Assembly (NCBI GenBank): GCA_016219965.1
Contig: JACRJM010000007.1
Coordinates: 372,294-436,293 of the forward strand
Direction: 5' to 3'
Length of the DNA: 64,000 nucleotides
Source: Candidatus Schekmanbacteria bacterium
GTDB taxonomy: Bacteria; Schekmanbacteria; GWA2-38-11; J061
Shown: piece after piece, positions 8,519 through 63,600 of the stretch
How positions within the stretch are numbered: position 1 is the stretch's first letter
How the letters are laid out: every line of letters starts with the position of its first letter
Program-made: the position numbers and the translations under genes
Notes under the pieces: generated by a model
Seen by the model: the letters and a program-made list of their open reading frames with translations, nothing else
Database searches by the model: none
What the model was told of the DNA's origin: nothing

Positions 8519-8566
8519 TCTCCCCGCTATTGCCGGAATATGTGCTGATTTTTTAATAGGTTAACA

Positions 8567-9985: not shown

Positions 9986-9988
9986 AGG

Positions 9989-25825: not shown

Positions 25826-27100
25826 TTATTTTTCATCCCTCATCGAGCAGAAAACTCCGCACATGGTACATACGTCGGGAGCCGCGGGTTTTGACGATTC
25901 CCTTATGGCAGCAGCCTTTTCAGGATTGATTGAAAGGCTTATCTGCTTCTTCCAGTCAAGATTTCTTCTCGCCCTGGCCATTTCAATATCCCTTTCCATG
26001 GCGCCCTTCTTCCCCTTTGCCACATCGGCGGCATGTGCGGCAATCCTTGCGACTATCACGGCTTCCTTCACATCATCAACCGTTGGAAGCCTTAAATGCT
26101 CGGACGGAGTCACATAACAGAGAAAATCCGCACCATAACTTCCTGCAAGTGCACCTCCTATGGCTGACGTAATGTGATCATAGCCAGGAGCAATATCGGT
26201 AACAAGAGGACCTAATACATAAAACGGCGCTCCTTTGCAAAGCTTTTTCTCCAAAAGTATATTGGTCTCAATCTGGTTAATTGGGACATGTCCGGGACCT
26301 TCTATCATAACCTGCACACCTACATTCCATGCAGACTGCGCAAGCTCACCCAGATGGATAAGCTCCTGCACCTGCGCCCTGTCAGTGGCATCGCTAAGAC
26401 ATCCCGGCCTTAAACCATCACCAAGGCTTATCGTTACATCATACTCCTTAAGGATCTCGAGGAGCCGTCCATAGTCCTCATAGTAAGGATTCTCTTTTTC
26501 ATTATGCCTCATCCATTTTGAAAGTATGGAACCGCCGCGGCTCACTATGCCGGTAATGCGTCCCTCTTTATCAAGGGCATCAAGAGCTCTTAATGTCACA
26601 CCGCAATGGACTGTTACGAAATCAACCCCTTCTTTAAGATGGTCTTCAACAGCCTTGAAAAAATCATCTTTCTTTATATCCTTTATGGACTTTCCATTTT
26701 CAAATGCATCAACTGCCGTCATATATATTGGCACAGTGCCTACCATAACATTGCTTGCTTTAATCACCCTGCGCAAGGTCTCTGCTAAGTTGCCGCCTGT
26801 GCTTAAATCCATTACTGCATCTGCTCCGGCTTTTACCGCAACTTCAACTTTTTTTATTTCCTCATCAATGTCGTGCATCTCAGGGGAAGTCCCGATATTG
26901 GCATTCACTTTTGTGAATAGCCCTTCACCTATGCCGCGCGGCTCTATCCCCCGCTTTCGTCGATTATTAAATGGAATCGCCACTTTCCCTTCTGCTATTT
27001 TTTTAGCAAGCTCTTCGCAGTCTATCCCTTCATAAGCGGAGACCCTTTCCATTTCAGGTGTCAGTTCCCCGCTTCTTGCTTTTTCAATTAATGTCTTCAT
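25826..27100 (-). CDS. thiC: Phosphomethylpyrimidine synthase
   Basis: ThiC-like sequence throughout; C-terminal CTMCGVFCSM Fe-S motif. Confidence 0.9.
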   Translation of the reverse strand: MKTLIEKARSGELTPEMERVSAYEGIDCEELAKKIAEGKVAIPFNNRRKRGIEPRGIGEGLFTKVNANIGTSPEMHDIDEEIKKVEVAVKAGADAVMDLSTGGNLAETLRRVIKASNVMVGTVPIYMTAVDAFENGKSIKDIKKDDFFKAVEDHLKEGVDFVTVHCGVTLRALDALDKEGRITGIVSRGGSILSKWMRHNEKENPYYEDYGRLLEILKEYDVTISLGDGLRPGCLSDATDRAQVQELIHLGELAQSAWNVGVQVMIEGPGHVPINQIETNILLEKKLCKGAPFYVLGPLVTDIAPGYDHITSAIGGALAGSYGADFLCYVTPSEHLRLPTVDDVKEAVIVARIAAHAADVAKGKKGAMERDIEMARARRNLDWKKQISLSINPEKAAAIRESSKPAAPDVCTMCGVFCSMRDEK

Positions 27101-28527
27101 TTATTTCCGCCTTTTGCTTTCCCTTCCGGATATGTCTTTTTCATTTCAAATGCAATCTTTAAAACCTTTTCTGCCGCCTCTTTGGCGCTTCTGCCAAACA
27201 CCCTGATCATTGGCTCTTTGCCTTCTCCCCCTTTGTCAAAAATAATATCAGGGCATTTTCCTTTTTTCCTCAGTATCTGCTCCACTCCCCAGTCAAGGGT
27301 TCTTCCTTCCTTTGAACTGTTGCTTTTTGGTTCGCTTTTCCTTGAAAATTCCGCAACCTCAAGACCGAGTTTTTTTGCCGCAGAAACTATTGATGGAGAA
27401 TATTTTATATTCATTGAACCTGCAATGCTTTTATCAAAACTGCGCGCTGTAAGAAGGACGCGGGCAATATGGCTTGATGCTCCCATTTTGGGAGAAGACA
27501 AAACTGCAATGTCATCGCCAAGCCTTACGATCCGTCCCGGAAATGCGGCTACATCATCTATAGTATTTCCTCTCACGGTTACAGAGGCTATGTTGGTCTG
27601 GACTTCAGGGATAAGAAAACCTAATTGCCTTCCCTTTAAAATCTCAAAAGCATTCTGTGCATCTTCGATTGCTGAAAGCTTCACTGCATCGCGGACAACC
27701 CATGATGATGGATCAGGCGGGCTTATGCCGTTCCCCACTCCCTCTGAATTAATAAGTGCGTTCTCAACATATTCCTTTGCTTTGGAGACTGCACTTTTAA
27801 GGTCAAAACCACAGGCTAGTAACGATGCGATAAAAGCTGAAAACATACAGCCTATGCCATGAGTATTTTTTGACTCGATCCGCTTCCCTTCGAACAATGT
27901 AAAAGCCCTGCCATTATAAAAGACATCAACGGGTGCGCCTTTAAGATGCCCTCCCTTTACAAGTACATTTTTTGCCCCAAGTTTAACTATCACTTTTGCA
28001 GCAGACTTCATGTCATCTATATTTTTTATATTTATACCGGAAAGCACAGTCGCCTCATCAATATTGGGAGTGACAAGGATAGAGAGAGGAAATATTTTTT
28101 CGACAAGGGATTTTATAGCCTCTTTTTTAAGAAGTATGTTTCCTCCCTTTGAAACCGTTACCGGGTCAACTACGAGATTCCTCACCTTGTAATGTTTAAG
28201 TCTGGCGGCTGTCACATTTATAAGAGCGCTTGTATAGAGCATCCCTGTCTTTACAGCATCAAATTTAATATCTCTTAGGACTGCATCAAGCTGGTTTTCC
28301 ACAATGTCAGCAGGCAATGAAAAAATGCTTTCAATGCCAAGAGTATTCTGTGCTGTAATGGCAGTTATGACCGTTGCACCGTAACCACCCATGCTGTTTA
28401 CTACTCTTAAATCAGCCTGAACGCCTGCACCGCCCCCTGAGTCTGAGCCGGCAATAGTCAATACCTTAAACACTATGAAATAATCCTCCTGATTTTCCTG
28501 GCTTCTTCTTCTGCGTCTCCTGCGCAA
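27097..28527 (-). CDS. thiDN: Bifunctional HMP/HMP-P kinase ThiD fused to a ThiN-type thiamine-phosphate synthase domain (ThiDN)
   Basis: N-terminal VLTIAGSDSGGGAGVQADL (ThiD); C-terminal ~180 aa ThiN-like domain; ORF-track start overlaps thiE, so the true start is probably an internal or non-ATG codon near 28470. Confidence 0.8.
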   Translation of the reverse strand: MRRRRRRRSQENQEDYFIVFKVLTIAGSDSGGGAGVQADLRVVNSMGGYGATVITAITAQNTLGIESIFSLPADIVENQLDAVLRDIKFDAVKTGMLYTSALINVTAARLKHYKVRNLVVDPVTVSKGGNILLKKEAIKSLVEKIFPLSILVTPNIDEATVLSGINIKNIDDMKSAAKVIVKLGAKNVLVKGGHLKGAPVDVFYNGRAFTLFEGKRIESKNTHGIGCMFSAFIASLLACGFDLKSAVSKAKEYVENALINSEGVGNGISPPDPSSWVVRDAVKLSAIEDAQNAFEILKGRQLGFLIPEVQTNIASVTVRGNTIDDVAAFPGRIVRLGDDIAVLSSPKMGASSHIARVLLTARSFDKSIAGSMNIKYSPSIVSAAKKLGLEVAEFSRKSEPKSNSSKEGRTLDWGVEQILRKKGKCPDIIFDKGGEGKEPMIRVFGRSAKEAAEKVLKIAFEMKKTYPEGKAKGGNK

Positions 28528-30099: not shown

Positions 30100-30262
30100 G
30101 CACCAAAAATAAAAAAACCGGAAACCTAAAAGGTCCCGGCTATTATCAATAAGGCAAATCTTTGCTCCCTTCGCTGGCATTACCCAGATCAGGTTCAAAG
30201 GGTCACCCCGCAAACCGGGATTTCTCAGCCCTCATCAGGCTCCCCTAACAACCGCATATTAG
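30100..30262 (-). ncRNA. TPP (THI-box) riboswitch with terminator-type expression platform
   Basis: Minus-strand reads UAGGGGAGCCUGAUGAGGGCUGAGAAAUCCCGG..ACCCUUUGAACCUGAUCUGGGUAAUGCCAGCGAAGGGA, matching the conserved THI-element core (CUGAGA, ACCUGAUCUGG, UAAUGCCAGCG, AGGGA); followed by CCGGGA..UUUCCGG hairpin and U7 before the thiS start. Confidence 0.85.
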
Positions 30263-30298
30263 ACTTCCTGCTTTAATAGTCAAGGATTTTATGGAGTG

Positions 30299-30338
30299 GC
30301 AATTTACTCCGTAAACCCTTTTCCCTTCATATCTTCCA
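30299..30338. repeat. Remnant copy A of the GNAT gene 3' end
   Basis: Minus strand reads ..GATATGAAGGGAAAAGGGTTTACGGAGTAA (..DMKGKGFTE*), matching the genuine GNAT C-terminus at 31500-31535; located just after the isochorismatase stop. Confidence 0.75.
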
Positions 30339-30346
30339 TCCCATAT

Positions 30347-30973
30347 TTACTTGCCGGACTTAAGCGACATATAGCTGTTGATAAGGTTGCGGTAGTCGGG
30401 GATGTGCTTAGAGAACAACATTCCCAGACCCTCAACATCATTGCGCCAGTCTCGATGCAATTCGCAGGCCACACCGAACCAGGTCATAAGTTGCGCACCT
30501 GCGGCAGACATGCGATCCCAGGCGGAATGTCGTGTAACCTCGTTGAATGTGCCCGAGGCATCTGTTACGACAAAGACTTCAAAGCCTTCCTCCAAGGCCG
30601 ACAACGCCGGAAAAGCGACACATACTTCAGTCACTATGCCGGCAACGATCAACTGCTTCTTGCCGGTAGACTTTACTGCCTTGACGAACTCCTCATTATC
30701 CCAGGCATTGATCTGGCCGGGACGGGCAATGTAGGGTGCACCAGGGAAGGTTTCCTTCAACTCTGTCATCAACGGCCCATTCGGCCCATCTTCAAAACTT
30801 GTAGTTAGGATGGTTGGTAGCTTGAAATATTTTGCGAGATCGGCCAGAGCCAAGACGTTATTCCTGAATGTATCCGGATCGATATCGCGCACTAGTGACA
30901 AGAGGCCGGACTGGTGATCTACCAACAGTACAGCGGCATTGTTTTTATCAAGACGAACATAGGATTTGCTCAT
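30347..30973 (-). CDS. Isochorismatase-family cysteine hydrolase
   Basis: MSKSYVRLDKNNAAVLLVDHQ..VAGIVTEVCVAFPALSALEEGFEVFVVTDA pattern; RBS AAAGGAG before the MSKS start; visibly higher GC than neighbouring genes. Confidence 0.8.
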   Translation of the reverse strand: MSKSYVRLDKNNAAVLLVDHQSGLLSLVRDIDPDTFRNNVLALADLAKYFKLPTILTTSFEDGPNGPLMTELKETFPGAPYIARPGQINAWDNEEFVKAVKSTGKKQLIVAGIVTEVCVAFPALSALEEGFEVFVVTDASGTFNEVTRHSAWDRMSAAGAQLMTWFGVACELHRDWRNDVEGLGMLFSKHIPDYRNLINSYMSLKSGK

Positions 30974-31110
30974 GGCATGACTCCTTTCATGGTTTGAGTT
31001 TAGTCTCAGACATGAATGGGTGAGAGATGATAACATACGTCATAAATCTTTTCCTCATTCTATACGCTTCTATTTTAAAATTAAATTATTGAAAAGAAAT
31101 TTGCAAGGAA

Positions 31111-31147
31111 TCTACTCGGTAAATCCTTTTCCCTTCATCTCATCTGG
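31111..31147. repeat. Remnant copy B of the GNAT gene 3' end
   Basis: Minus strand CCAGATGAGATGAAGGGAAAAGGATTTACCGAGTAG (PDEMKGKGFTE*) with an in-frame stop immediately upstream, so non-coding. Confidence 0.75.
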
Positions 31148-31215
31148 TTTTTAATGAACGGGAGAAACAGACTGGATTGCCCTCTATACGGGAACAATAA
31201 GAAAGACAAGTTTAT

Positions 31216-31416
31216 CTATCTTAAATCTGAAAGATTTCCTTCCCAAAGTCCTTTATGTCTTCCTGTGAGAAGCTTCTTCCTTTTTAACCGGCTCACCAAC
31301 TCACGCAGAGCCAGCTCAACCACTTCCTTTTTTGTTTTCAAGGAAGTCAATTTCTTTGCCTCGTTTATTAGTTTGTCTTCCAAAACTATATTGGTTCTTT
31401 TGGTATACATAATCAT
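31216..31416 (-). CDS. VapB-family type II antitoxin-like protein (orphan)
   Basis: MYTKRTNIVLEDKLINEAKKLT..KTKKEVVELALRELV..GLWEGNLSDLR resembles VapB antitoxins; no PIN-domain toxin gene adjacent. Confidence 0.55.
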   Translation of the reverse strand: MIMYTKRTNIVLEDKLINEAKKLTSLKTKKEVVELALRELVSRLKRKKLLTGRHKGLWEGNLSDLR

Positions 31417-31499
31417 CCTTCTTTACACATTAAAAAAGCTTATTATTTTTATGCAAGCAATAAGAAAAATAGTTTATCGATAGACAATATGCGAGTAAT

Positions 31500-31922
31500 T
31501 TACTCTGTGAATCCTTTTCCCTTCATCTCATCTGCTTTTCTGAAGAGTGCCATGCCGGTCTTCATTTTCCGCAATCCTAATTTTCTGTAAAAATCTTCTT
31601 TACCGGGAGAGGCAAAGAGGATGACATTGCACTGCGAGAGACGGGAGAGGATGTTTGTAATAATTTTAGTTCCAATCCCCTTTTTTTGGAATTCAGGGAC
31701 AACAGCTACATCATAGATAGCGGCCTGATAAGCCCCATCGGAAATTGCCCTGCCAAAACCAATCAACTGTCCGTCATGATAGACAAACACAGCGACATAG
31801 CTGTTCTCAAAGGCTTTCCTGTGTATGCCGGGCTCATGATACCCCATTCCGACACGCTTTAGCGTTTCCGATACCACTTTCCACTCCACTCCGGAACATT
31901 CAAATTTAATCTCTATTTCCAC
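31500..31922 (-). CDS. GNAT family N-acetyltransferase
   Basis: Acetyl-CoA binding motif (Q/R)xxGxG/A as QKKGIGTKI and overall GNAT pattern; the last ~12 codons are the source of the repeated tail sequence. Confidence 0.85.
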   Translation of the reverse strand: MEIEIKFECSGVEWKVVSETLKRVGMGYHEPGIHRKAFENSYVAVFVYHDGQLIGFGRAISDGAYQAAIYDVAVVPEFQKKGIGTKIITNILSRLSQCNVILFASPGKEDFYRKLGLRKMKTGMALFRKADEMKGKGFTE

Positions 31923-32000
31923 AAAGACCCCCTGAGGACTGAATGGTATCAGAGTGTAACACTGAGAGTATCATGCGATATTCAATTTGTTATTTTTTAA

Positions 32001-32249
32001 TTACTCTGCAACTTGATGGATAATCTCAGAGATATAAGTTTGATATTTTATACCTATTTTTTTTGCTTTAACTTTTATTTTTTCAATATCTTCACTATTA
32101 ACTCTTATAGTCATTGTTATATCTTTCTTTCGTGATTTAAGAGACCTCTCTATTTTTTCAAGTTCTTTACCTTTTATCTTTTTATACTCACCACGCAGTA
32201 ATGCGCTTTCAATCTCTCGTTCTTCTTTAGTTAATCTAATTTTTTTCAT
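32001..32249 (-). CDS. BrnA/CopG-like ribbon-helix-helix antitoxin-like protein (orphan)
   Basis: 82 aa; ITMTIRVNSEDIEKIKVKAKKIGIKYQTYISEIIHQ resembles the BrnA antitoxin family; no BrnT-like toxin adjacent. Confidence 0.5.
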   Translation of the reverse strand: MKKIRLTKEEREIESALLRGEYKKIKGKELEKIERSLKSRKKDITMTIRVNSEDIEKIKVKAKKIGIKYQTYISEIIHQVAE

Positions 32250-32282
32250 TGTTTATCTTTCAGGATTTTGTTTTTTTCTTCA

Positions 32283-32413
32283 TTATCCACAAACCGTTGC
32301 AATATTAGAGATAAGTTTTTTGAGTATTTTAACCTTCTGAATTTTTCACAAAGCTATTTTGTCTCTCGACTTAAACATTTATGACTTACATTTGTTAGCT
32401 ATGAAGATTTGAC
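32283..32413. repeat. ~130-bp direct repeat R1 (upstream of the 82-aa gene)
   Basis: About three-quarters identical by eye to 33361-33490 (shared blocks GAGATAAGTTTTT, TTTTTCAC, ATTTATGACTTA(C/T)ATTTGT, TATGAA). Confidence 0.7.
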
Positions 32414-32448
32414 CTTATTACCCTTTTGAACTTAATACATAGACAACA

Positions 32449-33318
32449 TCATCCTGCTCGTTTAATATCATTTTTAGTTAACTGATATATTGCTGCCTTT
32501 AAAACTTGCCAGCATATTGCAGCAGTGTGTTTATCAGGATTAAACCCACTACTAACTTGCTCATATGGGTGAATATAGTTTCTAAAATATCTTAACGAAT
32601 GACTAAATTTTCGTACATCTTCCAGTAGGAGACCTACATCATATGCTACATCAATAAAATTGTTTAATGACCAATCTGGAAATTGTTTAACTTTTCCTTC
32701 CTTATCTTTTGGTGACATCTTTGATTGATTAAATTCTTTTGGATGTTTTAAAGCTATTCCAAGTAAAATACCCTCCAGTGTACTTCCTGCAAGAAATATT
32801 ACAGAAAGTGGCGCAGTGACAGATAAACATTTTTTCATTTCTTCAAATCGATATTTCAATGTCTCGGTAATAACTCCATCAAGTCCAATTTTCTCAAGTG
32901 AAATTTCGCTAAACTCTCTTTTTAAAAACTCATCTTCTTCTGTTTCACTTGAACTATCTTCGAAGTTTATTTTATCAGCTTTTGCAAATATTATTTCTTT
33001 TTCATTCCTGACAACTTTCCAATTATCAAATGCGAGATATTGATTAAACTCTTTGATGAATTTGTCTAAATCAGCAAATCGACCAATGAAGTTTACTGGT
33101 GCAAACAATTTCTTGATACATTTGTCCAATTCAGGAGTACCGTTGATTTTGGAAAGCTTTTCATCTGTGTACATCCATCTTGAAGGGAATCCTTGTAAAT
33201 ATTGATCCTTAAATCCTAACTCATTAAAAAAACTAACTAATTGAGGGCCGGAACGATATTCCGTTTCTTCATTAATCAGGTTTCTTAATTTCTCAAGTGA
33301 TTTTTTCTGAAGAATCAT
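32449..33318 (-). CDS. Hypothetical protein with AbiJ-like N-terminal region and C-terminal HEPN-like Rx6H motif
   Basis: 289 aa; C-terminal RYFRNYIH fits the HEPN R-x(4-6)-H motif; assignment tentative. Confidence 0.4.
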   Translation of the reverse strand: MILQKKSLEKLRNLINEETEYRSGPQLVSFFNELGFKDQYLQGFPSRWMYTDEKLSKINGTPELDKCIKKLFAPVNFIGRFADLDKFIKEFNQYLAFDNWKVVRNEKEIIFAKADKINFEDSSSETEEDEFLKREFSEISLEKIGLDGVITETLKYRFEEMKKCLSVTAPLSVIFLAGSTLEGILLGIALKHPKEFNQSKMSPKDKEGKVKQFPDWSLNNFIDVAYDVGLLLEDVRKFSHSLRYFRNYIHPYEQVSSGFNPDKHTAAICWQVLKAAIYQLTKNDIKRAG

Positions 33319-33360
33319 TTTAATCCTATATTTGAAACAATAGATGGGGACAAATCTTCG

Positions 33361-33490
33361 TTATCTACAAACTGCTCACTCTGAGAGATAAGTTTTTCGA
33401 AAATTTTCACCCTCTACTTTTTTCACGCAGTCATTTCGTTTCTTGTCTCACAAATTTATGACTTATATTTGTCGTTATGAAAATTTTACA
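33361..33490. repeat. ~130-bp direct repeat R2 (upstream of the 289-aa gene)
   Basis: Paralogous to R1 at 32283-32413. Confidence 0.7.
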
Positions 33491-33660
33491 CTACTAGCCT
33501 CATCTTGTCTCCTTCGATTTTTATTGATCTAACACAGAATTGAGTAATGAGTCACTGAAAGATAACAATATGCCTACAACTAATTGGCATCCATCATAGC
33601 AATGTAAGCAAAAAAAACGACCTAACGCACTCGTTCAAGTGCAGCGTGTACTGGGGGGGG

Positions 33661-34023
33661 TCAGTCACTATATTTGGAAGTCTGCCATGAGTTAACCTCG
33701 AATAGTACGGCACAATCACCGGAATTATTCCAGACAGTTTTCTCAAGTCCCCAAAACATGAAGTGTGTTGTAGACCCATCTTGGTTCTTCTGTTCACTTG
33801 GTGTTCCCGATTTTGTATAAAGGACTACGGAGTCCCCAGCGCGTACCTCTTTTGGCTTGAACCAGTATGCGTGCCGTTGGAGGTTTGAGATTGCATTCTG
33901 AGACGTATACGTTGTGTCAAACACAATAAAGTAATTTAGGTTCGTAGTAGCAATGACTTTAAGCCACAACCGCTCTTTGTTGGCTACACCTCTGTCGACG
34001 ATATTGACTATTTCAATCTTCAT
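33661..34023 (-). CDS. Hypothetical protein (~120 aa)
   Basis: ORF starting MKIEIVNIVDRG; translationally coupled to the upstream membrane-protein gene (4-bp overlap); GC higher than surrounding housekeeping genes; no recognisable motif. Confidence 0.4.
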   Translation of the reverse strand: MKIEIVNIVDRGVANKERLWLKVIATTNLNYFIVFDTTYTSQNAISNLQRHAYWFKPKEVRAGDSVVLYTKSGTPSEQKNQDGSTTHFMFWGLEKTVWNNSGDCAVLFEVNSWQTSKYSD

Positions 34024-34484
34024 CTTTTTACAATCCTCCCGACAGATGCGCCCACTATAATGCATAAACCAACTATACCAGCGATGACGCCATATTCGGA
34101 CTTCTCTCCCCAAAAAAACGGCATCAGACCGATGATAGCGCCCCCGAGACCTACTCCTACGCCAAAAAAAATCTCTATTGCTTTTTGAGTCAGTAATTTC
34201 TCAGAGAGTACTGCTGCTTTCTTGTCGGATTCATGATAGAGGTTTATGTATGATCTTAAATACTCCCGCTCATCATCAGCTTCTTCGAGCAGGCCGAGGA
34301 TAAGCTTCTGCACGCCAGGGGAGAACAACTCTTCGTCGGTCAATTGCCTTCTAACATCTCTGAATGCTGCTCGTCGTCCAGATGGTGGCACACCAGACTC
34401 AATCGTGCCAGTTTCACGTGGTTCTGTTTCCTTTTTTTGACTGGGAGGGCCCAATGCTGAAGCCTCAGTTTTAACATCATTCAT
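34020..34484 (-). CDS. Hypothetical membrane protein (N-terminal soluble region, two C-terminal TM helices)
   Basis: 154 aa; C-terminal glycine-rich hydrophobic segments FFGVGVGLGGAIIGL and GVIAGIVGLCIIVGA. Confidence 0.45.
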   Translation of the reverse strand: MNDVKTEASALGPPSQKKETEPRETGTIESGVPPSGRRAAFRDVRRQLTDEELFSPGVQKLILGLLEEADDEREYLRSYINLYHESDKKAAVLSEKLLTQKAIEIFFGVGVGLGGAIIGLMPFFWGEKSEYGVIAGIVGLCIIVGASVGRIVKR

Positions 34485-34693
34485 TTTTCGCCTCCATCAT
34501 AATTTCAAAGACCTAACATTCCTCTTTATATTTATTCCCTGATTGTCAATTTTATACTCATCATTAAAATACTTAGTCAAGAAAAAGTGCCTATAAGATA
34601 ATTTGAACGTGTAAAAAAAGATAACAAATATTATAAAATGATTTATGATTGACAATCCATTCCATCAACTCAGAAATCTTAAAAGGTAAGATA

Positions 34694-35425
34694 ATGATAT
34701 GTCCTAAATGCAAAATAGAACAGGCTGACGGAAATACTGAATGCACAAGGTGCGGGATTATTTTCGAAAAATATGAAGAGCATCAGAATTTACTTGCTGA
34801 AGAAAAGATTCCTAAGGCTTGTGATGATGAAACAGTATCTTCTCTCATCTCATTAAAAGACTTCTTGTTCTACGTAGCTCCCGGCACCAATCCCTTTTAT
34901 CTTGGCGGGAGAATAATTGTTTTCTTATTCATTCTGGCCTGGAGCATAAACTTTTTCCGTTTTCCAATGGAGAGCAATCATTCGGGGGAAAGTTTCCTCC
35001 ATTTCATAAACATCCCCTTCCATGAAGCAGGGCATATTATATTCATGCCCTTTGGGAGATTTATGAGCGCTCTTGGCGGCACACTGGGGCAACTGCTCAT
35101 ACCGTTTGCCTGTCTTTTCACTTTCCTTATAAAAACACGTGACACCTTCGGAGGATCAGTAGCATTGTGGTGGACTGGAGAAAATTTTCTTGATATTGCC
35201 CCCTATATAAATGATGCGAGGGATTTAAATCTTTTACTCCTGGGCGGAGTGACAGGAAAGGAAGTTGAGGGGCATGACTGGGAATTCATTCTTGGCAAAC
35301 TACAGGCTCTCCGGTATGATCACACTATTGCAAATATTATCCATAATGCCGGAATCGTCGTGATGATTCTTTCGCTTTTATGGGGAGGGTACATTATTTT
35401 TAAACAGGTGATTTCAAGAGCATGA
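34694..35425 (+). CDS. Membrane protein with N-terminal zinc ribbon and HExxH motif (putative intramembrane zinc metallopeptidase)
   Basis: CPKC..CTRC zinc ribbon, then several TM segments containing FHEAGHIIF; start placed at MICPKCK after the AAGGTAAG RBS. Confidence 0.5.
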   Translation: MICPKCKIEQADGNTECTRCGIIFEKYEEHQNLLAEEKIPKACDDETVSSLISLKDFLFYVAPGTNPFYLGGRIIVFLFILAWSINFFRFPMESNHSGESFLHFINIPFHEAGHIIFMPFGRFMSALGGTLGQLLIPFACLFTFLIKTRDTFGGSVALWWTGENFLDIAPYINDARDLNLLLLGGVTGKEVEGHDWEFILGKLQALRYDHTIANIIHNAGIVVMILSLLWGGYIIFKQVISRA

Positions 35426-36099
35426 AGCTGATAAAGAATATTCCAATAAAAATTGATAAAGATGAGCTGTTAAAGATCCTGAAAATAAAAAAGGAGTCTG
35501 CGGGAAAAATCAATGACAATCTCGCAAGGCTGATAGATGAAGAAATAGCGCGGGGGATGAAACTCGCAAGGCCTCAGGCGCTTTATGAATTTAGAAAAGT
35601 AATAAATTCTGATGGTGACGGTGTTGAAATAGAAGGCGGCATAAAGATTGGCGAAAACACTTTCAAGAATTACATGACATCAATTGACCGAATCTGTTTT
35701 GCCCTTGTGACCATAGGTCCTGCCCTTGAAGAGGAGGCTGACAAGCTTCAAAAGGATGGCGAATACACCCGTGCAATGATACTCGATGCTGTAGGGTCAG
35801 TTGCAGTTGAAGATGCGGCAGGGAATTTAAACCACATGATTTGCGACAAATTAAAAGGGAAGAAAACCGGAATATCCCGCCGCTTCAGTCCTGGATATGG
35901 AAAGTTCAAGGTTAAGGAACAGAAAAAAATATCAGACATAATCCCATTCAAAAAAATTGGAGTGGCTCTCACATCATCATTCATGATGGTGCCTCAAAAG
36001 AGCATAAGCTTTTGCCTTTATACTGGAAAGCTTAAAAAAGAAATCCCCGGAACCTGTAATATATGCGGGATGAAGGATTGCCCTTACCGCAGCTGTTGA
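35422..36099 (+). CDS. Hypothetical protein with methionine-synthase-activation-domain-like RFSPGYG motif and C-terminal Cys cluster
   Basis: 225 aa; start overlaps the upstream stop (ATGA); RRFSPGYG; C-terminal CNICGMKDCPYRSC. Confidence 0.4.
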   Translation: MKLIKNIPIKIDKDELLKILKIKKESAGKINDNLARLIDEEIARGMKLARPQALYEFRKVINSDGDGVEIEGGIKIGENTFKNYMTSIDRICFALVTIGPALEEEADKLQKDGEYTRAMILDAVGSVAVEDAAGNLNHMICDKLKGKKTGISRRFSPGYGKFKVKEQKKISDIIPFKKIGVALTSSFMMVPQKSISFCLYTGKLKKEIPGTCNICGMKDCPYRSC

Positions 36100-36977
36100 C
36101 CGGTCTTATCTTTTTCCGGAATGAATGACCTTATCTGTTTGAGGCAGAAAAAATAGCTCAGGGTTTTTGTTGATACAAGAAGGAAGAGATAGAAAAGTGC
36201 GAAGGGCATATAAGACATGCCTTTAAGAAATATCTCATAAATATAAAAAACCGCCCCTGCCATGAAAAACAATTCTGTGAAAAGTCCTGCAATGCCTGCG
36301 CGGAAGAATCCAGTCTTCATATATGCGCCTCCCGGGATCAAAAGAGAATCCTGAAGAAGTTTCTTGTCATCCTTGAATTTTTTACCGCATGCCTGACAGC
36401 AAAAAACACCTTCTCTCAGAAGAGAAAGACAGTCAGGGCAGACATGATATGCAAACTTTACATTACCATTCTGTATGCTTCGCGGGGCGCTCAATATCCT
36501 GTTCTTAAGCCTTCCTGCAATATCTTCAATATCGGCTTTGCTAAGGTTCTCATAGGATAATGCAAGATTATCTCTGCATTTTACATCAAGGCTTTTCCAG
36601 ATTCCTGCTGAGCATCTGATATCTTTTATTGCAGAATATCTTACAATTCTTATCCTGTTTCCTAAGAGCAAAGGACCGCCGGTTGATATTTCAATAAGTC
36701 TCCTGTCAGTGAATACAAGAACGACTTTTTTGACAGTGTAAGCATAACAGAGAGTTATTACCGCCTCCCAGATTTTTATCTTTTCAGCGGCAGATACCAG
36801 CGCAAGGACTTCCTCATTTTTTTCGATCAGACTGGAAAGAAGCCCGGATATCTCTTCAAATGTTTTTATTTTAGACTTAGTTTGTTTATCATTTAATACT
36901 TTACTTGGCGGATCAACGAGCACCGCCCCGGGGAACTTAAAAGCTACTGTTTTAGTATTCATAATAACGTCACTCAT
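36084..36977 (-). CDS. Membrane protein with bacterial PH-like domain and CxxC zinc ribbon
   Basis: 297 aa; VVLVFTDRRLIEI bPH-like segment; CPDC..CQAC; C-terminal TM helices; RBS AGAGG before the start. Confidence 0.5.
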   Translation of the reverse strand: MSDVIMNTKTVAFKFPGAVLVDPPSKVLNDKQTKSKIKTFEEISGLLSSLIEKNEEVLALVSAAEKIKIWEAVITLCYAYTVKKVVLVFTDRRLIEISTGGPLLLGNRIRIVRYSAIKDIRCSAGIWKSLDVKCRDNLALSYENLSKADIEDIAGRLKNRILSAPRSIQNGNVKFAYHVCPDCLSLLREGVFCCQACGKKFKDDKKLLQDSLLIPGGAYMKTGFFRAGIAGLFTELFFMAGAVFYIYEIFLKGMSYMPFALFYLFLLVSTKTLSYFFCLKQIRSFIPEKDKTGQQLR

Positions 36978-37142
36978 ATAAGCCTCTATTTTTTAATTAG
37001 TCACTTTTAGAGCTATTTACAAGTGAGGGTTTCGGTTCACTGGAGGGATACTTAAGCAGTCAAATTATTTGGAGTAATTGGTAATAAAAAAGAATCGAAG
37101 GATTTAGAGATGACAAATCTGACGGCACGTTCGGGGAACGTG

Positions 37143-37246
37143 CCCTACAGAAGCGTAACATGTCCTACAGAAAATGATGCAGGGTCTGTGAGTTTATTTG
37201 TAGGGTCTGTGAGAATAGTTGTAGGGTCTGCTCCCCGAGCAGACCG
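37143..37246. promoter_or_regulatory. Array of five 21-bp-phased repeats plus a terminal palindrome (operator/iteron-like)
   Basis: CCCTACAG (37143), TCCTACAG (37163), then inverted-orientation TGCAGGGTCTGTGAG (37178), TGTAGGGTCTGTGAG (37199), TGTAGGGTCTGCTCC (37220), ending in palindrome GGTCTGCTC-CCC-GAGCAGACC; lies in the promoter region of the 36977 minus-strand gene. Confidence 0.5.
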
Positions 37247-37338
37247 GATAATTCATTAGAAAAGGAAGTGGTTTTCTATGAAAAAGTATTTATGAGCCAG
37301 TCACTGACGAAGTATAATGTTAAAATATTACGCTTGAG

Positions 37339-37638
37339 TCAGTGGTTATTGATGGGTTTAGAGGTAAGCCCGCTGATGAAATGCTTAAAACTTGCCCTCT
37401 CAATTATTTCTTCATCGGTCTGGGAGCAGTTATTCTCTTCAAGAAAAGCTTCCCAGCACTGATGCGTATAAACACATTTTGTAAAACAATACTCAGCGTA
37501 TTCTTTTTCCTCAGTCAGAAAGTCTATTGGATTATCTTCTGCCTCATTTATGGCATAATAACCATTTCCAAAGCACCAGCAACCAATACATCCGAATTTC
37601 TCAGCAAGCTGACTGGATCTGTCTTTTCTTTCACCCAT
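37339..37638 (-). CDS. Small cysteine-rich protein (99 aa), unknown function
   Basis: Strong RBS AGGAGA; seven Cys (CIGCWC..C..C..C..C). Confidence 0.5.
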   Translation of the reverse strand: MGERKDRSSQLAEKFGCIGCWCFGNGYYAINEAEDNPIDFLTEEKEYAEYCFTKCVYTHQCWEAFLEENNCSQTDEEIIERASFKHFISGLTSKPINNH

Positions 37639-37765
37639 ATTATTATCTCCTGATTAGATGTTATTTATCACTACTTCCCATGATATTCAAGAAATAATTT
37701 ATTTGAGCAATTTAGTATATTCCGCCCAGCTTTACTTTTAGTTTATTACATTGTAAAATCTGTGA

Positions 37766-38530
37766 ATGATAGATATTCATTGCCATATATTGCCTTCCAT
37801 AGATGACGGTCCTGACAATATTGACGAGTCAATTGAAATGGCTAAAATTGCCGAAGCCGACGGCATAAAAAAAATAGTTGCTACCCCACATCAGCTCGAA
37901 GGCCTGTACCAGCCCAAACCGGATTATATCCTTGCTAAAATAGAAGAGCTGAACAATCTGTTAACAGACAGGGGGTGCAATGTTGAAATCCTTCCCGGTT
38001 CCGATGCGCACATTTCCCATGATCTAATAAGCAAGATCGAGTCAAATGAAGTTTTTACGCTAAACCGGAAAAACCACATTCTCCTTGAGTTTCCAAATCA
38101 GTTTGTATCCGAAAGGATAAAAGAGCTTTTATCAAGTCTTATTTTAAAACGGATCACACCTGTAATCAGCCATCCTGAAAGAAATTTGATGTTTCAGCGC
38201 AACCCGAACCTTCTGTTTGAAATGATAGGAATCGGAGCGCTTTCTCAGATAACCGCAATGAGTGTGATTGGAGAATTTGGATATGATGCAAAAAAATCGG
38301 CAAAAAAATTCATCTCCCACAGGATGGTTCATTTTGTCGCATCTGACGCACATTCATCAGTGGGAAGGACTCCTGAAATAAGCATTTGCATCAAGCATCT
38401 TAAGAAAATCATATCTGAAGATGAAGTCGAAGAGATTCTTTTTACGAACCCGGAACTCGTTATACTGGGAAAGAGCGTCTATCCGCGCCAGGCGGAAAAA
38501 ATACGATCCTTTTTTGGCCTCTTTGGGTAA
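37766..38530 (+). CDS. PHP-family protein-tyrosine phosphatase (CpsB/YwqE-like)
   Basis: N-terminal MIDIHCHILPSIDDG and downstream His-rich PHP motifs. Confidence 0.8.
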   Translation: MIDIHCHILPSIDDGPDNIDESIEMAKIAEADGIKKIVATPHQLEGLYQPKPDYILAKIEELNNLLTDRGCNVEILPGSDAHISHDLISKIESNEVFTLNRKNHILLEFPNQFVSERIKELLSSLILKRITPVISHPERNLMFQRNPNLLFEMIGIGALSQITAMSVIGEFGYDAKKSAKKFISHRMVHFVASDAHSSVGRTPEISICIKHLKKIISEDEVEEILFTNPELVILGKSVYPRQAEKIRSFFGLFG

Positions 38531-38540
38531 ATAAAAAAAA

Positions 38541-38612
38541 GGCGGCATCCGGACTCGAACCGGAGAATAACGGTTTTGCAGACCGCTGCCTTAGCCACTT
38601 GGCTATGCCGCC
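38541..38612 (-). tRNA. tRNA-Cys (GCA)
   Basis: 72-nt cloverleaf on the minus strand GGCGGCAUAGCCAAGUGGCUAAGGCAGCGGUCUGCAAAACCGU..GGUUCGAGUCCGGAUGCCGCC; anticodon loop CUGCAAA. Confidence 0.9.
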
Positions 38613-38642
38613 GGATTGATTTCTTTCTGCCAAAAAGCAAAA

Positions 38643-38719
<77 letters not shown>

Positions 38720-56734: not shown

Positions 56735-57451
56735 TCAAACTGTCCCTGCTTTTACATCTATCTGCGTAAGCTTCCCATGCTCAAGCCGCAATACCCTGTC
56801 AGACTTACTTGCAATATCAAAGTTATGCGTTGCAATTACAAAGCTTTCGTTCTTGCTTTTATTAAGATTCCGCAAAAGTTCAAATACCTCATCCCCGGTC
56901 TCTCTGTCAAGGTTTCCGGTAGGCTCATCGGCAAGGACTATCTTCGGACTCATTGCCAGGGCCCTTGCTAATGCAACCCTTTGCTGCTCACCTCCGGAAA
57001 GCTCTGAAGGACGATGCTCAACCCTTTCGCCAAGCCCCACTTCTGAAAGGAGGTTAACCGCCAACTCCCTTGCCTCCTTCATGCTTTTCCCGTTGATCAA
57101 TTGCGGTATCATTACATTCTCAAGGCTTGAAAATTCCATAAGAAGGTGGTGGAACTGGAACACAAATCCAATGTTTACGTTCCTGAATCTTGCCCTCTCC
57201 TCTTCCTTGAACTTCCAGATGTCTTCAGAGCCGTAAAAAATCTCCCCGCCATCAGGAGAGTCAAGCAAACCAAGCAAATGAAGCAGTGTACTCTTACCAG
57301 TACCCGATGCACCGACGATGCTCACAAGCTCACCCTGTTTCAGGGAAAAGCTGAGACCCTTTAAGACCTCTATCTTTGCATCTCCCATCTGGTAGGATTT
57401 GCTGAGGTCTTTAGCTTCTAAAATAATATTATTAGACAATTCGCACTTCAT
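56735..57451 (-). CDS. lolD: Lipoprotein-releasing system ATP-binding protein
   Basis: Walker [10 protein letters not shown]; ABC signature [14 protein letters not shown]; Walker [12 protein letters not shown]. Confidence 0.85.
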
Positions 57452-58001
57452 TTGTTGATTACCTTACGACACGGCAAACAGGGCATTATATAAAAAAGTT
57501 CCGGTCATACTTTTAAGCTTCAAGCCTTACCGAAACAAATGCTTTCAACGAAAATAACAAAATAAAACAGGTATGTAAAAAGCCAAATAATTGTGCGAGT
57601 TATATAGGTCGGGGATTAAAAGTCAAGGAAAAATGGCAGCGGATAAAACCGGTACTTATGATATTTTGAAGAAAGAAAACAAGTAGAAAAAAACATAACA
57701 AGCTAAATAAAACCGTCGAATATTTGAACACTTTAAGTCGTTTAAAATCAATATGTTCTAAAAACTCACTAAAAAGTGTGCAGTTTAGTGAACAGTTTAG
57801 TAGGAGTTTATATTAACCTATCCAAGCTATACGACACATTTAAACCTAATATTTTCAAGCAAATCAGTATGTTATTATCTTCGAGTTACCTTCTGGCACA
57901 TTCTTTGCTTATTTTATATAGAATATTTTTTAAGTTTACTATTTAAGTCTTGTATATAGCCTGTAAAATTTTTTTCCACTTCAGAATAAGGGGGTATTGT
58001 G

Positions 58002-60512: not shown

Positions 60513-60522
60513 AAGATTCTGG

Positions 60523-60583
60523 ATCCCGCATCAAGTGCGGGATGACAAAAGTGACTGTGTTGGATGCCGGCTCAAGTCCGGCA
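60523..60583 (+). other. Tandem stem-loop pair between the large gene and the small peptide gene
   Basis: ATCCCGCA-TCAAG-TGCGGGAT and ATGCCGG-CTCAAGT-CCGGCAT, each followed by GACA; same pair recurs at 63282-63342. Confidence 0.6.
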
Positions 60584-60630
60584 TGACAGATTATTAAGGA
60601 ATGACAACAGGATTAATAGGAGAATATAAA

Positions 60631-60786: not shown

Positions 60787-60820
60787 TTATTTTATAAAAC
60801 AAATATCTGGGGGTATTGTG

Positions 60821-63546: not shown

Positions 63547-63600
63547 TAGAATTATTATGAGCCGCTGCAACTTTTTATATAAATTGAATAAGGAGCGGGT

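What the first reader, a model, noticed from the sequence alone, without database searches (positions are those of the whole stretch)
30296..38540. An ~8-kb accessory island between the thi riboswitch and tRNA-Cys/tRNA-Gly
Between two conserved blocks lies a run of small, mostly unrecognisable genes: isochorismatase-family hydrolase, VapB-like and BrnA-like antitoxins without toxins, GNAT acetyltransferase, a HEPN/AbiJ-like protein, membrane and Cys-rich proteins, and a PHP phosphatase. Several have visibly higher GC than the flanking core genes (the isochorismatase and the 33661-34484 pair look about 10 points higher by eye), and the region is punctuated by two families of repeats. It ends at the 3' side of a tRNA pair, a classic island insertion site. 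This cargo mix resembles defense or addiction-module islands.
Basis: partly seen in the sequence, partly recalled or inferred. Interest (0 to 1): 0.7.

Follow-up and report, generated by a model that had tools for sequence, protein, structure and literature searches.

The report
Patchwork variable region, not one island
The 8-kb stretch between the thiamine operon and two tRNA genes is a patchwork. Its gene backbone is shared with close relatives, and several small foreign or decaying modules sit in it: an AbiJ-like HEPN gene, an orphan VapB, and a YcaC hydrolase very like that of Proteobacteria. It is an ordinary but well-resolved variable hotspot, not a single island inserted at a tRNA.

Summary
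The anatomy is as described: TPP riboswitch, tRNA-Cys and tRNA-Gly, 13 short genes and two repeat families.

Two metagenomic relatives (88-95% nucleotide identity) share the backbone: PHP, p99, p297, p225, p258, GNAT, ycaC, thi leader. The 8 kb is therefore not one strain-specific element. There is no integrase and no duplicate of the tRNA-Cys 3' end.

What varies:
- A 2.7-kb segment found only in the window (~31995-34692). It holds a membrane protein, a lamin-tail-fold protein, an AbiJ-NTD+HEPN protein and an RHH protein.
- A vapBC cassette, complete in one relative and absent in the other. The window keeps only a truncated vapB.

Repeat A is the last ~12 codons of the GNAT gene, present three times. 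Copies differ mainly at third codon positions, and they bracket the vapB and ycaC cassettes. I read them as scars of serial insertions at the GNAT 3' end.

GC deviates upward only for ycaC (0.51; 83-85% identical to E. coli YcaC). It deviates strongly downward for the RHH and AbiJ-like genes (0.27 and 0.32). The 33661-34484 pair has ordinary GC.

The AbiJ-like protein has homologues 73-90% identical in MAGs assigned to many phyla. Verdict: a mosaic hotspot rich in defence and toxin-antitoxin genes, and a new example of a known kind.

The parts
30149..30256 (-). TPP riboswitch, leader of the thiS-thiG-thiE-thiD-thiC operon. It is the left boundary of the region.
   Evidence: Rfam RF00059, 68.1 bits against a gathering score of 54.3. 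Its junction with A3 and ycaC is conserved in relative L085.
30301..30336 (-). Repeat A3, a remnant of a GNAT 3' coding end (reads ..MEDMKGKGFTE*). It lies just upstream of a promoter-like site that precedes the thi leader.
   Evidence: A promoter-like site at 30283-30256 follows it.
30347..30973 (-). ycaC, an isochorismatase-family cysteine hydrolase of 208 aa. It is a cassette bracketed by A2 and A3 and is compositionally foreign.
   Evidence: NCBIfam NF041461, 1.4e-120, 400 bits against a cut-off of 310. GC 0.506 and GC3 0.584. 83-85% aa identity to YcaC of E. coli, Paracoccus and Ensifer. Present in L085 and L128.
31077..31151 (-). Repeat A2, a GNAT 3'-end remnant plus about 45 nt of its downstream sequence. 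It is the same sequence type as the live GNAT end in relative L128.
   Evidence: In L085 the remnant still reads PLFKKPDEMKGKGFTE*.
31216..31416 (-). Orphan vapB antitoxin gene, lacking its last 7 codons. Its partner vapC (PIN) has been deleted. 31152-31215 is non-homologous filler.
   Evidence: PF09957, 2.7e-16. L085 carries vapB (70 aa) plus vapC (PIN, 135 aa) at the same place. L128 lacks the whole cassette.
31500..31922 (-). GNAT acetyltransferase of 140 aa. Its 3' end is repeat A1 (31465-31539). It is a resident gene of a highly conserved family.
   Evidence: Pfam GNAT domains. 2245 homologues, 70-80% identical in Desulfobacterota and other MAGs, with the C-terminus ..M.EKGFTE/D conserved. 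Neighbours vary in 16 other lineages, with no RHH partner.
31995..34692 (.). Window-specific 2.7-kb segment in the divergent p258/GNAT intergenic region. It is absent from both relatives, which have about 100 nt there.
   Evidence: blastn of L085 and L128 against the window. Junction alignment. Segment GC computed over 31943-34692 is 0.352.
32001..32249 (-). Orphan RHH (CopG/BrnA/NikA-like) protein of 82 aa, very low GC.
   Evidence: Pfam NikA-like 8.4e-6, CopG_antitoxin 1.2e-5 and BrnA 1.9e-3, all just below their gathering scores. GC 0.269.
32290..32420 (-). Repeat B1, between the AbiJ-like gene and the RHH gene.
   Evidence: No stable fold (z = 0.01). No Rfam match.
32449..33318 (-). AbiJ-NTD-like plus HEPN protein of 289 aa. 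It is a putative stand-alone abortive-infection RNase.
33367..33497 (-). Repeat B2, between the lamin-tail-fold gene and the AbiJ-like gene.
   Evidence: A 43-nt B-like piece also follows vapC in L085.
33661..34023 (-). Stand-alone 120-aa protein with a lamin-tail (Ig-like) fold. It is translationally coupled (ATGA overlap) to the upstream membrane protein.
34020..34484 (-). 154-aa protein with a probably disordered N-terminus and a hydrophobic C-terminus read by eye as two membrane helices. No family match.
   Evidence: Sequence. No credible hit in Pfam, PADLOC, NCBIfam or PHROGs. GC 0.465, which is ordinary.
34694..36099 (+). Backbone operon. p258 (243 aa from the ATG at 34694) has a zinc ribbon, a membrane region and an HEAGH motif. 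p225 (35422-36099) resembles the MetH activation domain and has a C-terminal Cys cluster.
   Evidence: PF02965, 4.6e-8, for p225. Both genes are in L128 at 91-93% aa. p225 is in L085, where p258 is mostly deleted.
36084..36977 (-). Backbone gene p297, with a weak bacterial PH domain match, a zinc ribbon and membrane helices.
   Evidence: PF14470, 1.4e-4, below the cut-off. 97% aa identity in L128 and 90% in L085.
37339..37638 (-). Backbone gene p99, a Cys-rich 99-aa protein.
   Evidence: 100% aa identity in L128, although the surrounding DNA is 95.5% identical. Called as a gene in the Logan contig.
37766..38530 (+). CpsB/CapC-type PHP tyrosine phosphatase, convergent with tRNA-Cys.
   Evidence: PF19567. 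NF041488, 1.7e-39, below its cut-off. Its start is present in L128.
38540..38719 (-). tRNA-Cys(GCA) and tRNA-Gly(GCC), the right boundary. They show no att-type duplication.

Best explanation
The interval is a mosaic variable region, a recombination and insertion hotspot. It belongs to a Candidatus Schekmanbacteria chromosome and was built in several independent steps on a backbone that the lineage conserves.

**Shown**
- The backbone is PHP, p99, p297, p225, p258, GNAT, ycaC and the thi leader.
- Two relatives, 88-95% identical at the nucleotide level, share it in the same order.

**Inferred history**
1. A YcaC hydrolase gene from a Proteobacteria-like donor was inserted at the 3' end of the resident GNAT gene. 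This displaced the old GNAT end, which survives as A3.
2. A vapBC module was inserted at the same place, displacing the next GNAT end, which survives as A2.
3. In the window's lineage vapC was then lost, leaving a truncated orphan vapB.
4. A 2.7-kb low-GC-rich segment entered the p258/GNAT intergenic region. It carries a membrane-protein plus lamin-tail-protein pair, a stand-alone AbiJ-NTD+HEPN gene and an orphan RHH gene.

**Likely insertion mechanism (inferred)**
The most likely route is recombination anchored in the very conserved GNAT gene on one side, with an illegitimate join on the other. Each event then leaves a short GNAT 3' pseudogene fragment. This process is known as homology-facilitated illegitimate recombination.

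**Likely functions (inferred)**
- The AbiJ-like protein probably works as described for the AbiJ architecture. An N-terminal sensor domain holds a C-terminal HEPN RNase in check until phage infection.
- The orphan VapB and the RHH protein are most likely decay products or free-standing repressors.
For: **Relatives and indels**
- L128 matches window 37844-37285, 37090-34693, 31926-31843, 31629-31474 and 31152-30576 at 88-95.5%.
- L085 matches 36924-35418, 31942-31212 and 31152-30174 at 88-91%.
- Each haplotype has private indels:
  - The 2.7-kb segment is only in the window.
  - vapC and a B-like piece are only in L085.
  - The vapBC cassette is wholly absent from L128, where one A copy joins GNAT to ycaC.
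  - L128 has a 214-nt deletion inside GNAT.
  - L085 has lost most of p258.

**Repeat A is a GNAT 3' end**
- The family C-terminus ..M.EKGFTE/D is conserved in 120 homologues.
- Across 7 copies in 3 haplotypes, 7 of 9 variable sites in 12 codons are third positions. My binomial estimate is p about 0.008.
- Between copy types the coding part is 81-97% identical, while the 45 nt downstream are only 20-60% identical.
- The left edges of A2 and A3 differ.
- 27 other GNAT loci have no such duplicates.

**Foreign origin**
- GC and GC3 z-scores.
- YcaC is 83-85% identical to E. coli YcaC. For comparison, the best matches for this genome's ThiG and ThiC are 77% and 63%.
- The AbiJ-like gene is 89% identical in DNA, over the ORF only, to a gene sitting in a low-GC patch of a genome with ~55% GC flanks.
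- Its homologues sit among TA, defence and mobile genes.

**HEPN fold and motif:**. The architecture is as in PMC3710099.
Against: - Only two short relative contigs (3.9 kb each) were available. Neither reaches the tRNAs or the thi genes proper.
- Whether the backbone is itself accessory at deeper levels is therefore untested.
- The direction of each event, insertion versus deletion, is inferred from parsimony and composition. There is no outgroup. L128's single A copy could equally come from a deletion between A1 and A2.
- Repeat B marks the 3' side of three different variable modules (p154-p120, the AbiJ-like gene, vapBC). The model does not explain it.
- No function was tested. The AF2 model of the AbiJ-like protein is only moderate: mean pLDDT 64.7, and below 50 around the RxxxxxxH motif.
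Confidence: 0.68

Rival explanations
1. One reading: one genomic island of about 8 kb integrated at the 3' end of tRNA-Cys. It would carry defence and addiction cargo and have since lost its integrase.
For: - The region abuts the 3' end of tRNA-Cys.
- Its genes are short, on mixed strands and mostly of unknown function.
- It contains TA-type and Abi-type genes.
- No distant relative has the same neighbourhood next to thiS.
Against: - No integrase or recombinase is in the interval.
- The tRNA-Cys 3' end is not repeated anywhere in the window.
- The tRNA-proximal 4 kb (PHP to p258) has ordinary GC and GC3. It is conserved in L128 at 93-95% with protein-level constraint.
- Composition is heterogeneous (0.27 to 0.51), which implies several sources.
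- The observed indels are internal and none lies at the tRNA.
Confidence: 0.07
2. A cassette platform driven by site-specific recombination, integron-like in logic. On this view the GNAT 3' end (repeat A) is an attachment site into which small integrase-less cassettes (vapBC, ycaC) are inserted by a recombinase encoded elsewhere. Repeat B would be a cassette-end element.
For: - The cassettes are small (0.4-0.8 kb) and all lie in one orientation. Each is followed by a repeat.
- The vapBC cassette is present or absent exactly between A1 and A2.
- B-like sequence lies 3' of three different variable modules, including one in another genome.
Against: - A is ordinary coding sequence of the GNAT gene with a synonymous-site pattern. 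It is not a palindromic recombination site.
- The left edges of A2 and A3 differ by about 15 nt.
- B has no stable hairpin (z = 0.0 and 0.5), and by eye has no R''/R' attC core motifs.
- No tyrosine recombinase is in or beside the interval.
- 27 other GNAT loci show no duplicated ends.
- The AbiJ-like gene's homology to its closest foreign copy stops at the ORF and does not include B.
Confidence: 0.12
3. An ordinary core locus. On this view the small genes are lineage-specific housekeeping genes, and the repeats and GC differences are incidental.
For: - The backbone genes have normal composition.
- They are conserved with purifying selection in the relatives. For example, p99 is 100% identical in protein at 95.5% DNA identity.
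Against: - Three haplotypes at 88-95% identity differ by at least five indels within 8 kb.
- ycaC, the RHH gene and the AbiJ-like gene are compositional outliers beyond every background ORF.
- Their best homologues lie in other phyla at 83-90% identity.
- A toxin gene has been lost from a TA pair.
Confidence: 0.08

Closest known systems
Defence islands and variable genomic islets: hotspots where TA, Abi and other accessory genes accumulate
   Same: - TA-type genes (VapB, an RHH protein) and an Abi-type HEPN gene cluster with genes of unknown function.
- Content differs between close relatives.
- Composition is foreign.
- Homologues of the AbiJ-like gene elsewhere also sit among SymE, ParE/Phd, PemK, AbiEi, PLD and AAA_15 genes.
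   Different: - It is small.
- No complete recognised system was detected by the PADLOC models.
- Two of the three TA-like genes are orphans.
- More than half of the interval is a conserved backbone of ordinary composition.
AbiJ-family abortive-infection proteins: an AbiJ-NTD fused to an AbiJ-type HEPN domain (Anantharaman et al. 2013, PMC3710099)
   Same: - Two-domain architecture.
- The N-terminal domain matches the N-termini of AbiJ and Stk2-type kinases. The paper reports AbiJ-NTD1 and NTD3 fused to HEPN domains and to kinases.
- The predicted C-terminal domain has a HEPN fold with a conserved R-x6-H.
- It is a stand-alone gene.
   Different: - No Pfam family matches at E <= 0.01.
- The PADLOC AbiJ model matches weakly (2.4e-4, 18.9 bits) and only over the N-terminal half.
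- No profile match to any solved structure at E <= 1.
- The family is unusually uniform: 73-90% identity among the 120 listed homologues, in MAGs of many phyla.
VapBC type II toxin-antitoxin module
   Same: vapB matches PF09957. The intact pair, vapB plus a PIN-domain vapC with overlapping genes, is present at the same site in relative L085.
   Different: In the window vapC is gone and vapB lacks its last 7 codons. The module cannot act as an addiction system.
Integron cassette arrays and CALINs
   Same: Co-oriented small cassettes, each followed by a member of a repeat family. The cargo is typical of chromosomal integrons: GNAT, TA genes, an isochorismatase-family gene and an Abi-type gene.
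   Different: - The repeats are not attC sites. A is a coding fragment. B has no hairpin and no core motifs.
- No IntI-type integrase is in or next to the interval.
tRNA-targeted genomic islands and integrative elements
   Same: The region lies next to the 3' end of a tRNA gene.
   Different: There is no integrase and no direct repeat of the tRNA 3' end. The tRNA-proximal part is conserved and compositionally native.
Homology-facilitated illegitimate recombination (additive integration anchored in one conserved gene). Recalled from my own knowledge, not from a paper read here.
   Same: - A highly conserved anchor gene (GNAT).
- Foreign DNA lies immediately downstream of it.
- Truncated duplicates of the anchor's 3' end lie beyond each insert, with non-identical edges.
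   Different: It is inferred from sequence scars only. No donor sequences carrying GNAT-vapBC or GNAT-ycaC were found.

Membership tests
tRNA-integrated genomic island | Integrase or recombinase gene within the island, usually next to the tRNA | tested here: not met
   Pfam and NCBIfam scans of the region's ORFs found none. The tRNA-adjacent gene is a CpsB-type phosphatase. The flanking genes are a PMT-family glycosyltransferase and the thi genes.
tRNA-integrated genomic island | Direct repeat of the tRNA 3' end at the distal boundary | tested here: not met
   24-mer and 17-mer of the tRNA-Cys 3' end, with up to 3 and 2 mismatches, match only the tRNA itself in 64 kb.
tRNA-integrated genomic island | Present or absent as one unit between related genomes | tested here: not met
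   The relatives keep the backbone and differ by internal indels. The tRNA junction itself is not covered by any relative contig.
Integron cassette array / CALIN | attC sites: imperfect palindromes that fold, with R''/R' cores | tested here: not met
   Repeat B has fold z-scores of 0.01 and 0.48. Repeat A is GNAT coding sequence. No RYYYAAC/GTTRRRY pair was seen by eye. The IntegronFinder attC model was not available.
Integron cassette array / CALIN | Co-oriented promoterless cassettes, each ending in a related recombination site | tested here: inconclusive
   Seven co-oriented genes at 30347-34484. Five of the gene or operon units end in an A or B copy, but the nature of those sites is not attC-like.
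AbiJ (Lactococcus abortive infection protein family) | C-terminal HEPN domain with an Rx4-6H motif | tested here: met
AbiJ (Lactococcus abortive infection protein family) | Significant match to the family profile over its full length | tested here: not met
   PADLOC AbiJ gives E = 2.4e-4, 18.9 bits, over profile positions 25-172 of 281 only. No Pfam Abi_C or AbiJ_NTD hit at E <= 0.01.
AbiJ (Lactococcus abortive infection protein family) | Confers abortive infection against phage | not testable with these tools
   Needs a phage challenge experiment.
VapBC type II TA system | Adjacent antitoxin (VapB) and PIN-domain toxin (VapC) genes | tested here: not met
   Only vapB is present in the window. 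vapC is present in L085.
BrnTA type II TA system | BrnA family antitoxin above the curated cut-off, with an upstream brnT | tested here: not met
   BrnA Pfam 19 bits against 26.1, and NCBIfam 17 bits against 60. No BrnT-like ORF lies in the 200 nt upstream.
GNAT-RHH toxin-antitoxin (TacT/AtaT type) | RHH antitoxin gene conserved upstream of the GNAT toxin | tested here: not met
   The close relatives L085 and L128 have no RHH gene before this GNAT. Sixteen other family loci have varied neighbours and no RHH partner.
YcaC isochorismatase-family cysteine hydrolase | Score above the NCBIfam equivalog cut-off over the full length | tested here: met
   NF041461, 400 bits against a cut-off of 310, positions 2-200 of 201.

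The most novel reading that the evidence does not exclude
The GNAT 3' end (repeat A) and the B element may be the attachment and cassette-end sites of a gene-cassette capture system that has not been described. It would have no integrase of its own and would stock a chromosomal hotspot with small defence and TA cassettes. That would be integron-like logic with unrelated sites and an unknown recombinase acting in trans.
Probability: 0.08. Interest if true: 0.65.

Novelty: new member of a known kind. Interest (0 to 1): 0.3.

Why it matters
- **A worked example from a poorly sampled phylum.** It shows how a small chromosomal hotspot is assembled. Three haplotypes let the steps be read directly: gain of a Proteobacteria-like ycaC, gain and decay of vapBC, and gain of an Abi-type gene.
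- **Datable scars.** The pseudogene scars of a conserved anchor gene show where each insertion happened.
- **An unannotated gene family.** The ~288-aa AbiJ-NTD+HEPN family has no Pfam model. It has thousands of members that are nearly uniform across MAGs assigned to many phyla. That makes it a reasonable candidate for experimental testing as a stand-alone antiphage gene.
- **No new principle.** None of this requires one.

Tried and rejected
- **ThiG synteny scan.** I scanned the genome collection with ThiG. The best hits were 76-78% identical and from other phyla. None of the 50 loci scanned has a tRNA-Cys/tRNA-Gly pair beside the thi operon (five carry some other tRNA), and none shares the island genes. 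The hits are too distant to test synteny.
- **Glycosyltransferase beyond the tRNAs.** Apart from the source genome itself, the nearest homologue is 31% identical and sits in an unrelated context.
- **Exact-protein look-ups.** These returned only short contigs from the source sample SRR12113407.
- **GNAT 3' end as a general insertion site.** 27 other GNAT loci show no duplicated end, so I rejected it as a general phenomenon.
- **GNAT as a TacT-like toxin paired with the RHH.** Rejected: there is no conserved RHH neighbour.
- **Repeat B as a structured RNA, a riboswitch or an attC site.**
  - It has no stable fold and no Rfam hit even at E <= 1.
  - No further copies occur in the window.
  - One 19-mer match in viral contigs is at chance level and does not extend.
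- **Phage origin.**
  - The AbiJ-like protein has no match in the phage records. It has 3 matches in viral contigs, one full-length at 76% and two covering only the C-terminal part at 47-52%.
  - The lamin-tail-fold protein has no viral match.
- **Remnants of the ancestral p258/GNAT intergenic sequence inside the 2.7-kb segment.** None found.
- **Profile search of the AbiJ-like family against PDB sequences.** Nothing at E <= 1.

Full report
**What is in the sequence**

The landmarks are real.
- A TPP riboswitch lies at 30149-30256 on the minus strand (68 bits).
- tRNA-Cys(GCA) is at 38540-38612 and tRNA-Gly(GCC) at 38647-38719, both on the minus strand.
- The interval therefore lies on the 3' side of tRNA-Cys.

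Between these landmarks are 13 short genes on mixed strands. The rest of the window consists mostly of long, co-oriented genes.

Family scans give the following:

| Coordinates | Strand | Call |
|---|---|---|
| 30347-30973 | - | YcaC-type isochorismatase-family hydrolase; NF041461, 1.4e-120, above its cut-off |
| 31216-31416 | - | VapB; PF09957, 2.7e-16 |
| 31500-31922 | - | 140-aa GNAT |
| 32001-32249 | - | 82-aa RHH protein, just below the Pfam cut-offs for NikA-like, CopG and BrnA |
| 32449-33318 | - | 289-aa protein with no Pfam match; its N-terminus matches PADLOC Stk2 (1e-11) and AbiJ (2e-4) |
| 34020-34484 | - | 154-aa protein with a hydrophobic C-terminus (read by eye as membrane helices), no family match |
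| 33661-34023 | - | 120-aa protein, translationally coupled to the previous one |
| 34694-35425 | + | Zinc-ribbon membrane protein with an HEAGH motif |
| 35422-36099 | + | Protein resembling the MetH activation domain |
| 36084-36977 | - | Protein with a weak PH-domain match, a zinc ribbon and membrane helices |
| 37339-37638 | - | Cys-rich 99-aa protein |
| 37766-38530 | + | CpsB-type PHP phosphatase |

**Composition**

The background is 37 long ORFs outside the interval, with GC 0.433 +/- 0.026 and GC3 0.437 +/- 0.053.
- Only ycaC is high (0.506 and 0.584, z = +2.8), above every background ORF.
- The pair at 33661-34484 is ordinary (0.43 and 0.465).
- The real outliers are low. The RHH gene is at 0.269 and 0.169 (z = -6.4 and -5.1). 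The AbiJ-like gene is at 0.320 and 0.221 (z = -4.4 and -4.1).
- Genes from p258 to PHP are unremarkable.
- The range 0.27-0.51 within 8 kb points to several sources, not one.

**Source and relatives**

The window comes from a MAG named Candidatus Schekmanbacteria bacterium, on a 516-kb contig.

Distant synteny could not be tested.
- The best ThiG matches in the species-level genome collection are 76-78% identical and come from other phyla.
- None of them has the same neighbourhood.
- Apart from the source genome itself, the glycosyltransferase beyond the tRNAs has no homologue above 31%.

Two short metagenomic contigs from close relatives were found through the GNAT gene.
- L085 is a Logan contig from ERR12036780, 3926 bp.
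- L128 is JGI contig Ga0265292_1010806, 3918 bp.

**Three haplotypes**

L128 aligns to the window in five blocks:
- 37844-37285 at 95.5% (PHP start and p99)
- 37090-34693 at 93.6% (p297, p225, p258)
- 31926-31843 (GNAT start)
- 31629-31474 (GNAT end)
- 31152-30576 at 92% (A repeat and ycaC)

L085 aligns in three blocks:
- 36924-35418 at 90.8%
- 31942-31212 at 89.7%
- 31152-30174 at 88.1%, which runs into the thi leader

The order PHP, p99, p297, p225, p258, GNAT, ycaC, thi leader is therefore a backbone common to the lineage. Protein identities are at or above the DNA identities. For example, p99 is 100% identical in protein where the DNA is 95.5% identical. These are real genes under selection.

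The differences are internal.
1. Window ~31995-34692 is replaced in both relatives by about 100 nt of p258/GNAT intergenic sequence.
2. L085 has an intact vapB-vapC pair (70 aa plus a 135-aa PIN protein). The window has only vapB, lacking 7 codons, followed by 64 nt (31152-31215) of unrelated filler. L128 has no vapBC at all, and its GNAT runs straight into a single A copy and then ycaC.
3. L128 has a 214-nt deletion inside GNAT.
4. L085 has lost most of p258.

That is at least five structural changes in 8 kb among genomes 88-95% identical. The interval is a hotspot, but it is not a single element.

**Repeat A**

The three window copies (30301-30336, 31109-31144, 31497-31532; none expected by chance) are copies of the last ~12 codons of the GNAT gene.
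- The family's C-terminus ..M.EKGFTE/D is conserved in all 120 homologues inspected.
- Across seven copies in the three haplotypes, 9 sites vary in 12 codons. Seven of these are third positions. My binomial estimate is p about 0.008.
- Between copy types the coding part is 81-97% identical, but the 45 nt after the stop codon are only 20-60% identical.
- In L085 the A2 copy still reads PLFKKPDEMKGKGFTE*. That is the live GNAT end of L128 with one residue changed (KEKGFTE in L128).
- The left edges of A2 and A3 differ by about 15 nt.
- No duplicated end occurs in 27 GNAT loci from other lineages.

I conclude that A2 and A3 are displaced GNAT 3' ends left behind by two successive insertions, ycaC first and then vapBC.

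The most likely route is recombination anchored in the very conserved GNAT gene, with an illegitimate join at the far side. Site-specific integration is the alternative. Uneven edges, the ordinary coding nature of the site and the absence of any recombinase speak against it. It is not excluded.

**Foreign cargo**

- YcaC is 83-85% identical to YcaC of E. coli, Paracoccus and Ensifer. For comparison, this genome's ThiG and ThiC reach at best 77% and 63% to anything found.
- The GNAT family is 70-80% identical in many Desulfobacterota MAGs. It sits in varied neighbourhoods without an RHH partner, so it is not a TacT-type toxin.
- The 289-aa protein has 4496 homologues. The 120 listed are 73-90% identical to it. 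They come from MAGs labelled Syntrophorhabdaceae, Zixibacteria, Bacteroidales, Sedimentisphaerales, Cloacimonetes, Clostridia, Chloroflexota and others. All are 'hypothetical' and without Pfam domains.
- One close copy is 89% identical in DNA, with the similarity confined to the ORF plus 17 nt. It sits as a GC 0.33 patch in a contig whose flanks are about 55% GC, next to an AAA_15 ATPase gene.
- Other copies lie among SymE, PLD, ParE/Phd, PemK, AbiEi and resolvase genes.

**The AbiJ-like protein**

- R243, R246, N247 and H250 are invariant, which gives an R-x6-H motif.
- The N-terminal ~105 residues resemble 'abortive infection family' proteins on Acinetobacter plasmids, at 34-40% identity.
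- Anantharaman et al. 2013 (PMC3710099) describe exactly this architecture. AbiJ-NTD domains are fused to HEPN domains and, for NTD1 and NTD3, to protein kinases. This explains the Stk2 match.
- That paper proposes that the NTD senses a phage component and releases a suicidal HEPN RNase. I adopt this as the likely mechanism. It is inferred, not tested.
- Membership of the AbiJ family proper is not established, because the profile match is weak and covers only part of the protein.

**Other parts of the 2.7-kb segment**

- It belongs to a family of about 890 representative stand-alone proteins.
- With its membrane partner it forms a two-gene unit. By eye, a hairpin and T-run follow its stop codon and could be a terminator; the consensus scan did not list it. 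Its function is unknown.
- The RHH gene has no toxin partner.

**Repeat B**

Repeat B is about 130 nt at 76% identity and is low in GC.
- It follows the p154-p120 unit and the AbiJ-like gene.
- A 43-nt piece follows vapC in L085.
- It does not fold stably and matches no Rfam family.
- It is not transferred together with the AbiJ-like gene.

It may be a shared promoter-operator for the RHH protein, or a recombination substrate. This remains unexplained.

**tRNA and integron readings**

- The tRNA-Cys 3' end is not duplicated anywhere in the window.
- There is no integrase in or beside the interval.
- The tRNA-proximal half is native in composition and conserved.
- The array of co-oriented small cassettes recalls an integron, but neither repeat has attC properties.

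**Verdict**

- The interval is an accessory-rich, fast-changing hotspot with defence and TA flavour.
- It is a mosaic on a conserved backbone, not one island inserted at a tRNA.
- Its TA components are decayed.

It is a new example of a known kind and of modest interest. The better leads are the GNAT-end scars, the unexplained B element and the widespread unannotated AbiJ-NTD+HEPN family.

Noticed in passing
window 32449-33318; proteins P0143-P0262: The ~288-aa AbiJ-NTD+HEPN family has 4496 detected members. The 120 listed are 73-90% identical to the window's protein and come from MAGs assigned to many phyla. The family has no Pfam domain and every copy is annotated 'hypothetical'. It looks like an unusually uniform, very mobile gene that deserves a family model.
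   Followed up: partly
L176 1-8651 (JGI Ga0366834_1024132, labelled Candidatus Helarchaeota archaeon): The contig that carries the 'archaeal' homologue also encodes MotA/ExbB, OmpA-family, ParE/Phd and RNase R-like genes. It is probably a bacterial contig placed in the wrong bin, so the apparent cross-domain spread should be treated with caution.
   Followed up: no
L128 3148-3369: In the closest relative the GNAT gene has an internal 214-nt deletion (window 31630-31842 is missing) and is probably a pseudogene. This suggests the GNAT is dispensable in this lineage.
   Followed up: partly
L141 1658-1762; L142 7001-7105: Two contigs from other metagenomes hold only the last 35 codons of a GNAT of this family (80% identical). 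In L142, the one inspected, no long ORF covers the fragment. GNAT 3' fragments therefore also occur outside this lineage.
   Followed up: no
window 37178-37219: A 21-nt unit is tandemly duplicated in the p297/p99 intergenic region. L128 has about 100 nt less there (window 37091-37284 against L128 559-650). The Logan assembly of the source sample breaks at 37221.
   Followed up: no
window 33653-33660: A run of eight C (on the minus strand) starts right after the stop codon of the lamin-tail-fold gene. By eye it is followed by a terminator-like hairpin and a T-run.
   Followed up: no
window 27097-28527: The thiD gene product is long (up to 476 aa). Its C-terminal extension may be a fused ThiN-type domain. 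This was not checked.
   Followed up: no
window 8001-10000 and 57000-64000: Two other stretches of the window have lower GC (0.35-0.40) than the mean of 0.42. They contain long ORFs (472, 837 and 862 aa) that were not examined.
   Followed up: no
L166 6866-8688 (also L167-L170): Downstream of the 90%-identical AbiJ-like homologue lie a 239-aa gene of unknown function and then an AAA_15/AAA_21 ATPase (405 aa) with a ~200-aa partner. That pair resembles known two-gene ATPase-plus-nuclease defence systems.
   Followed up: no
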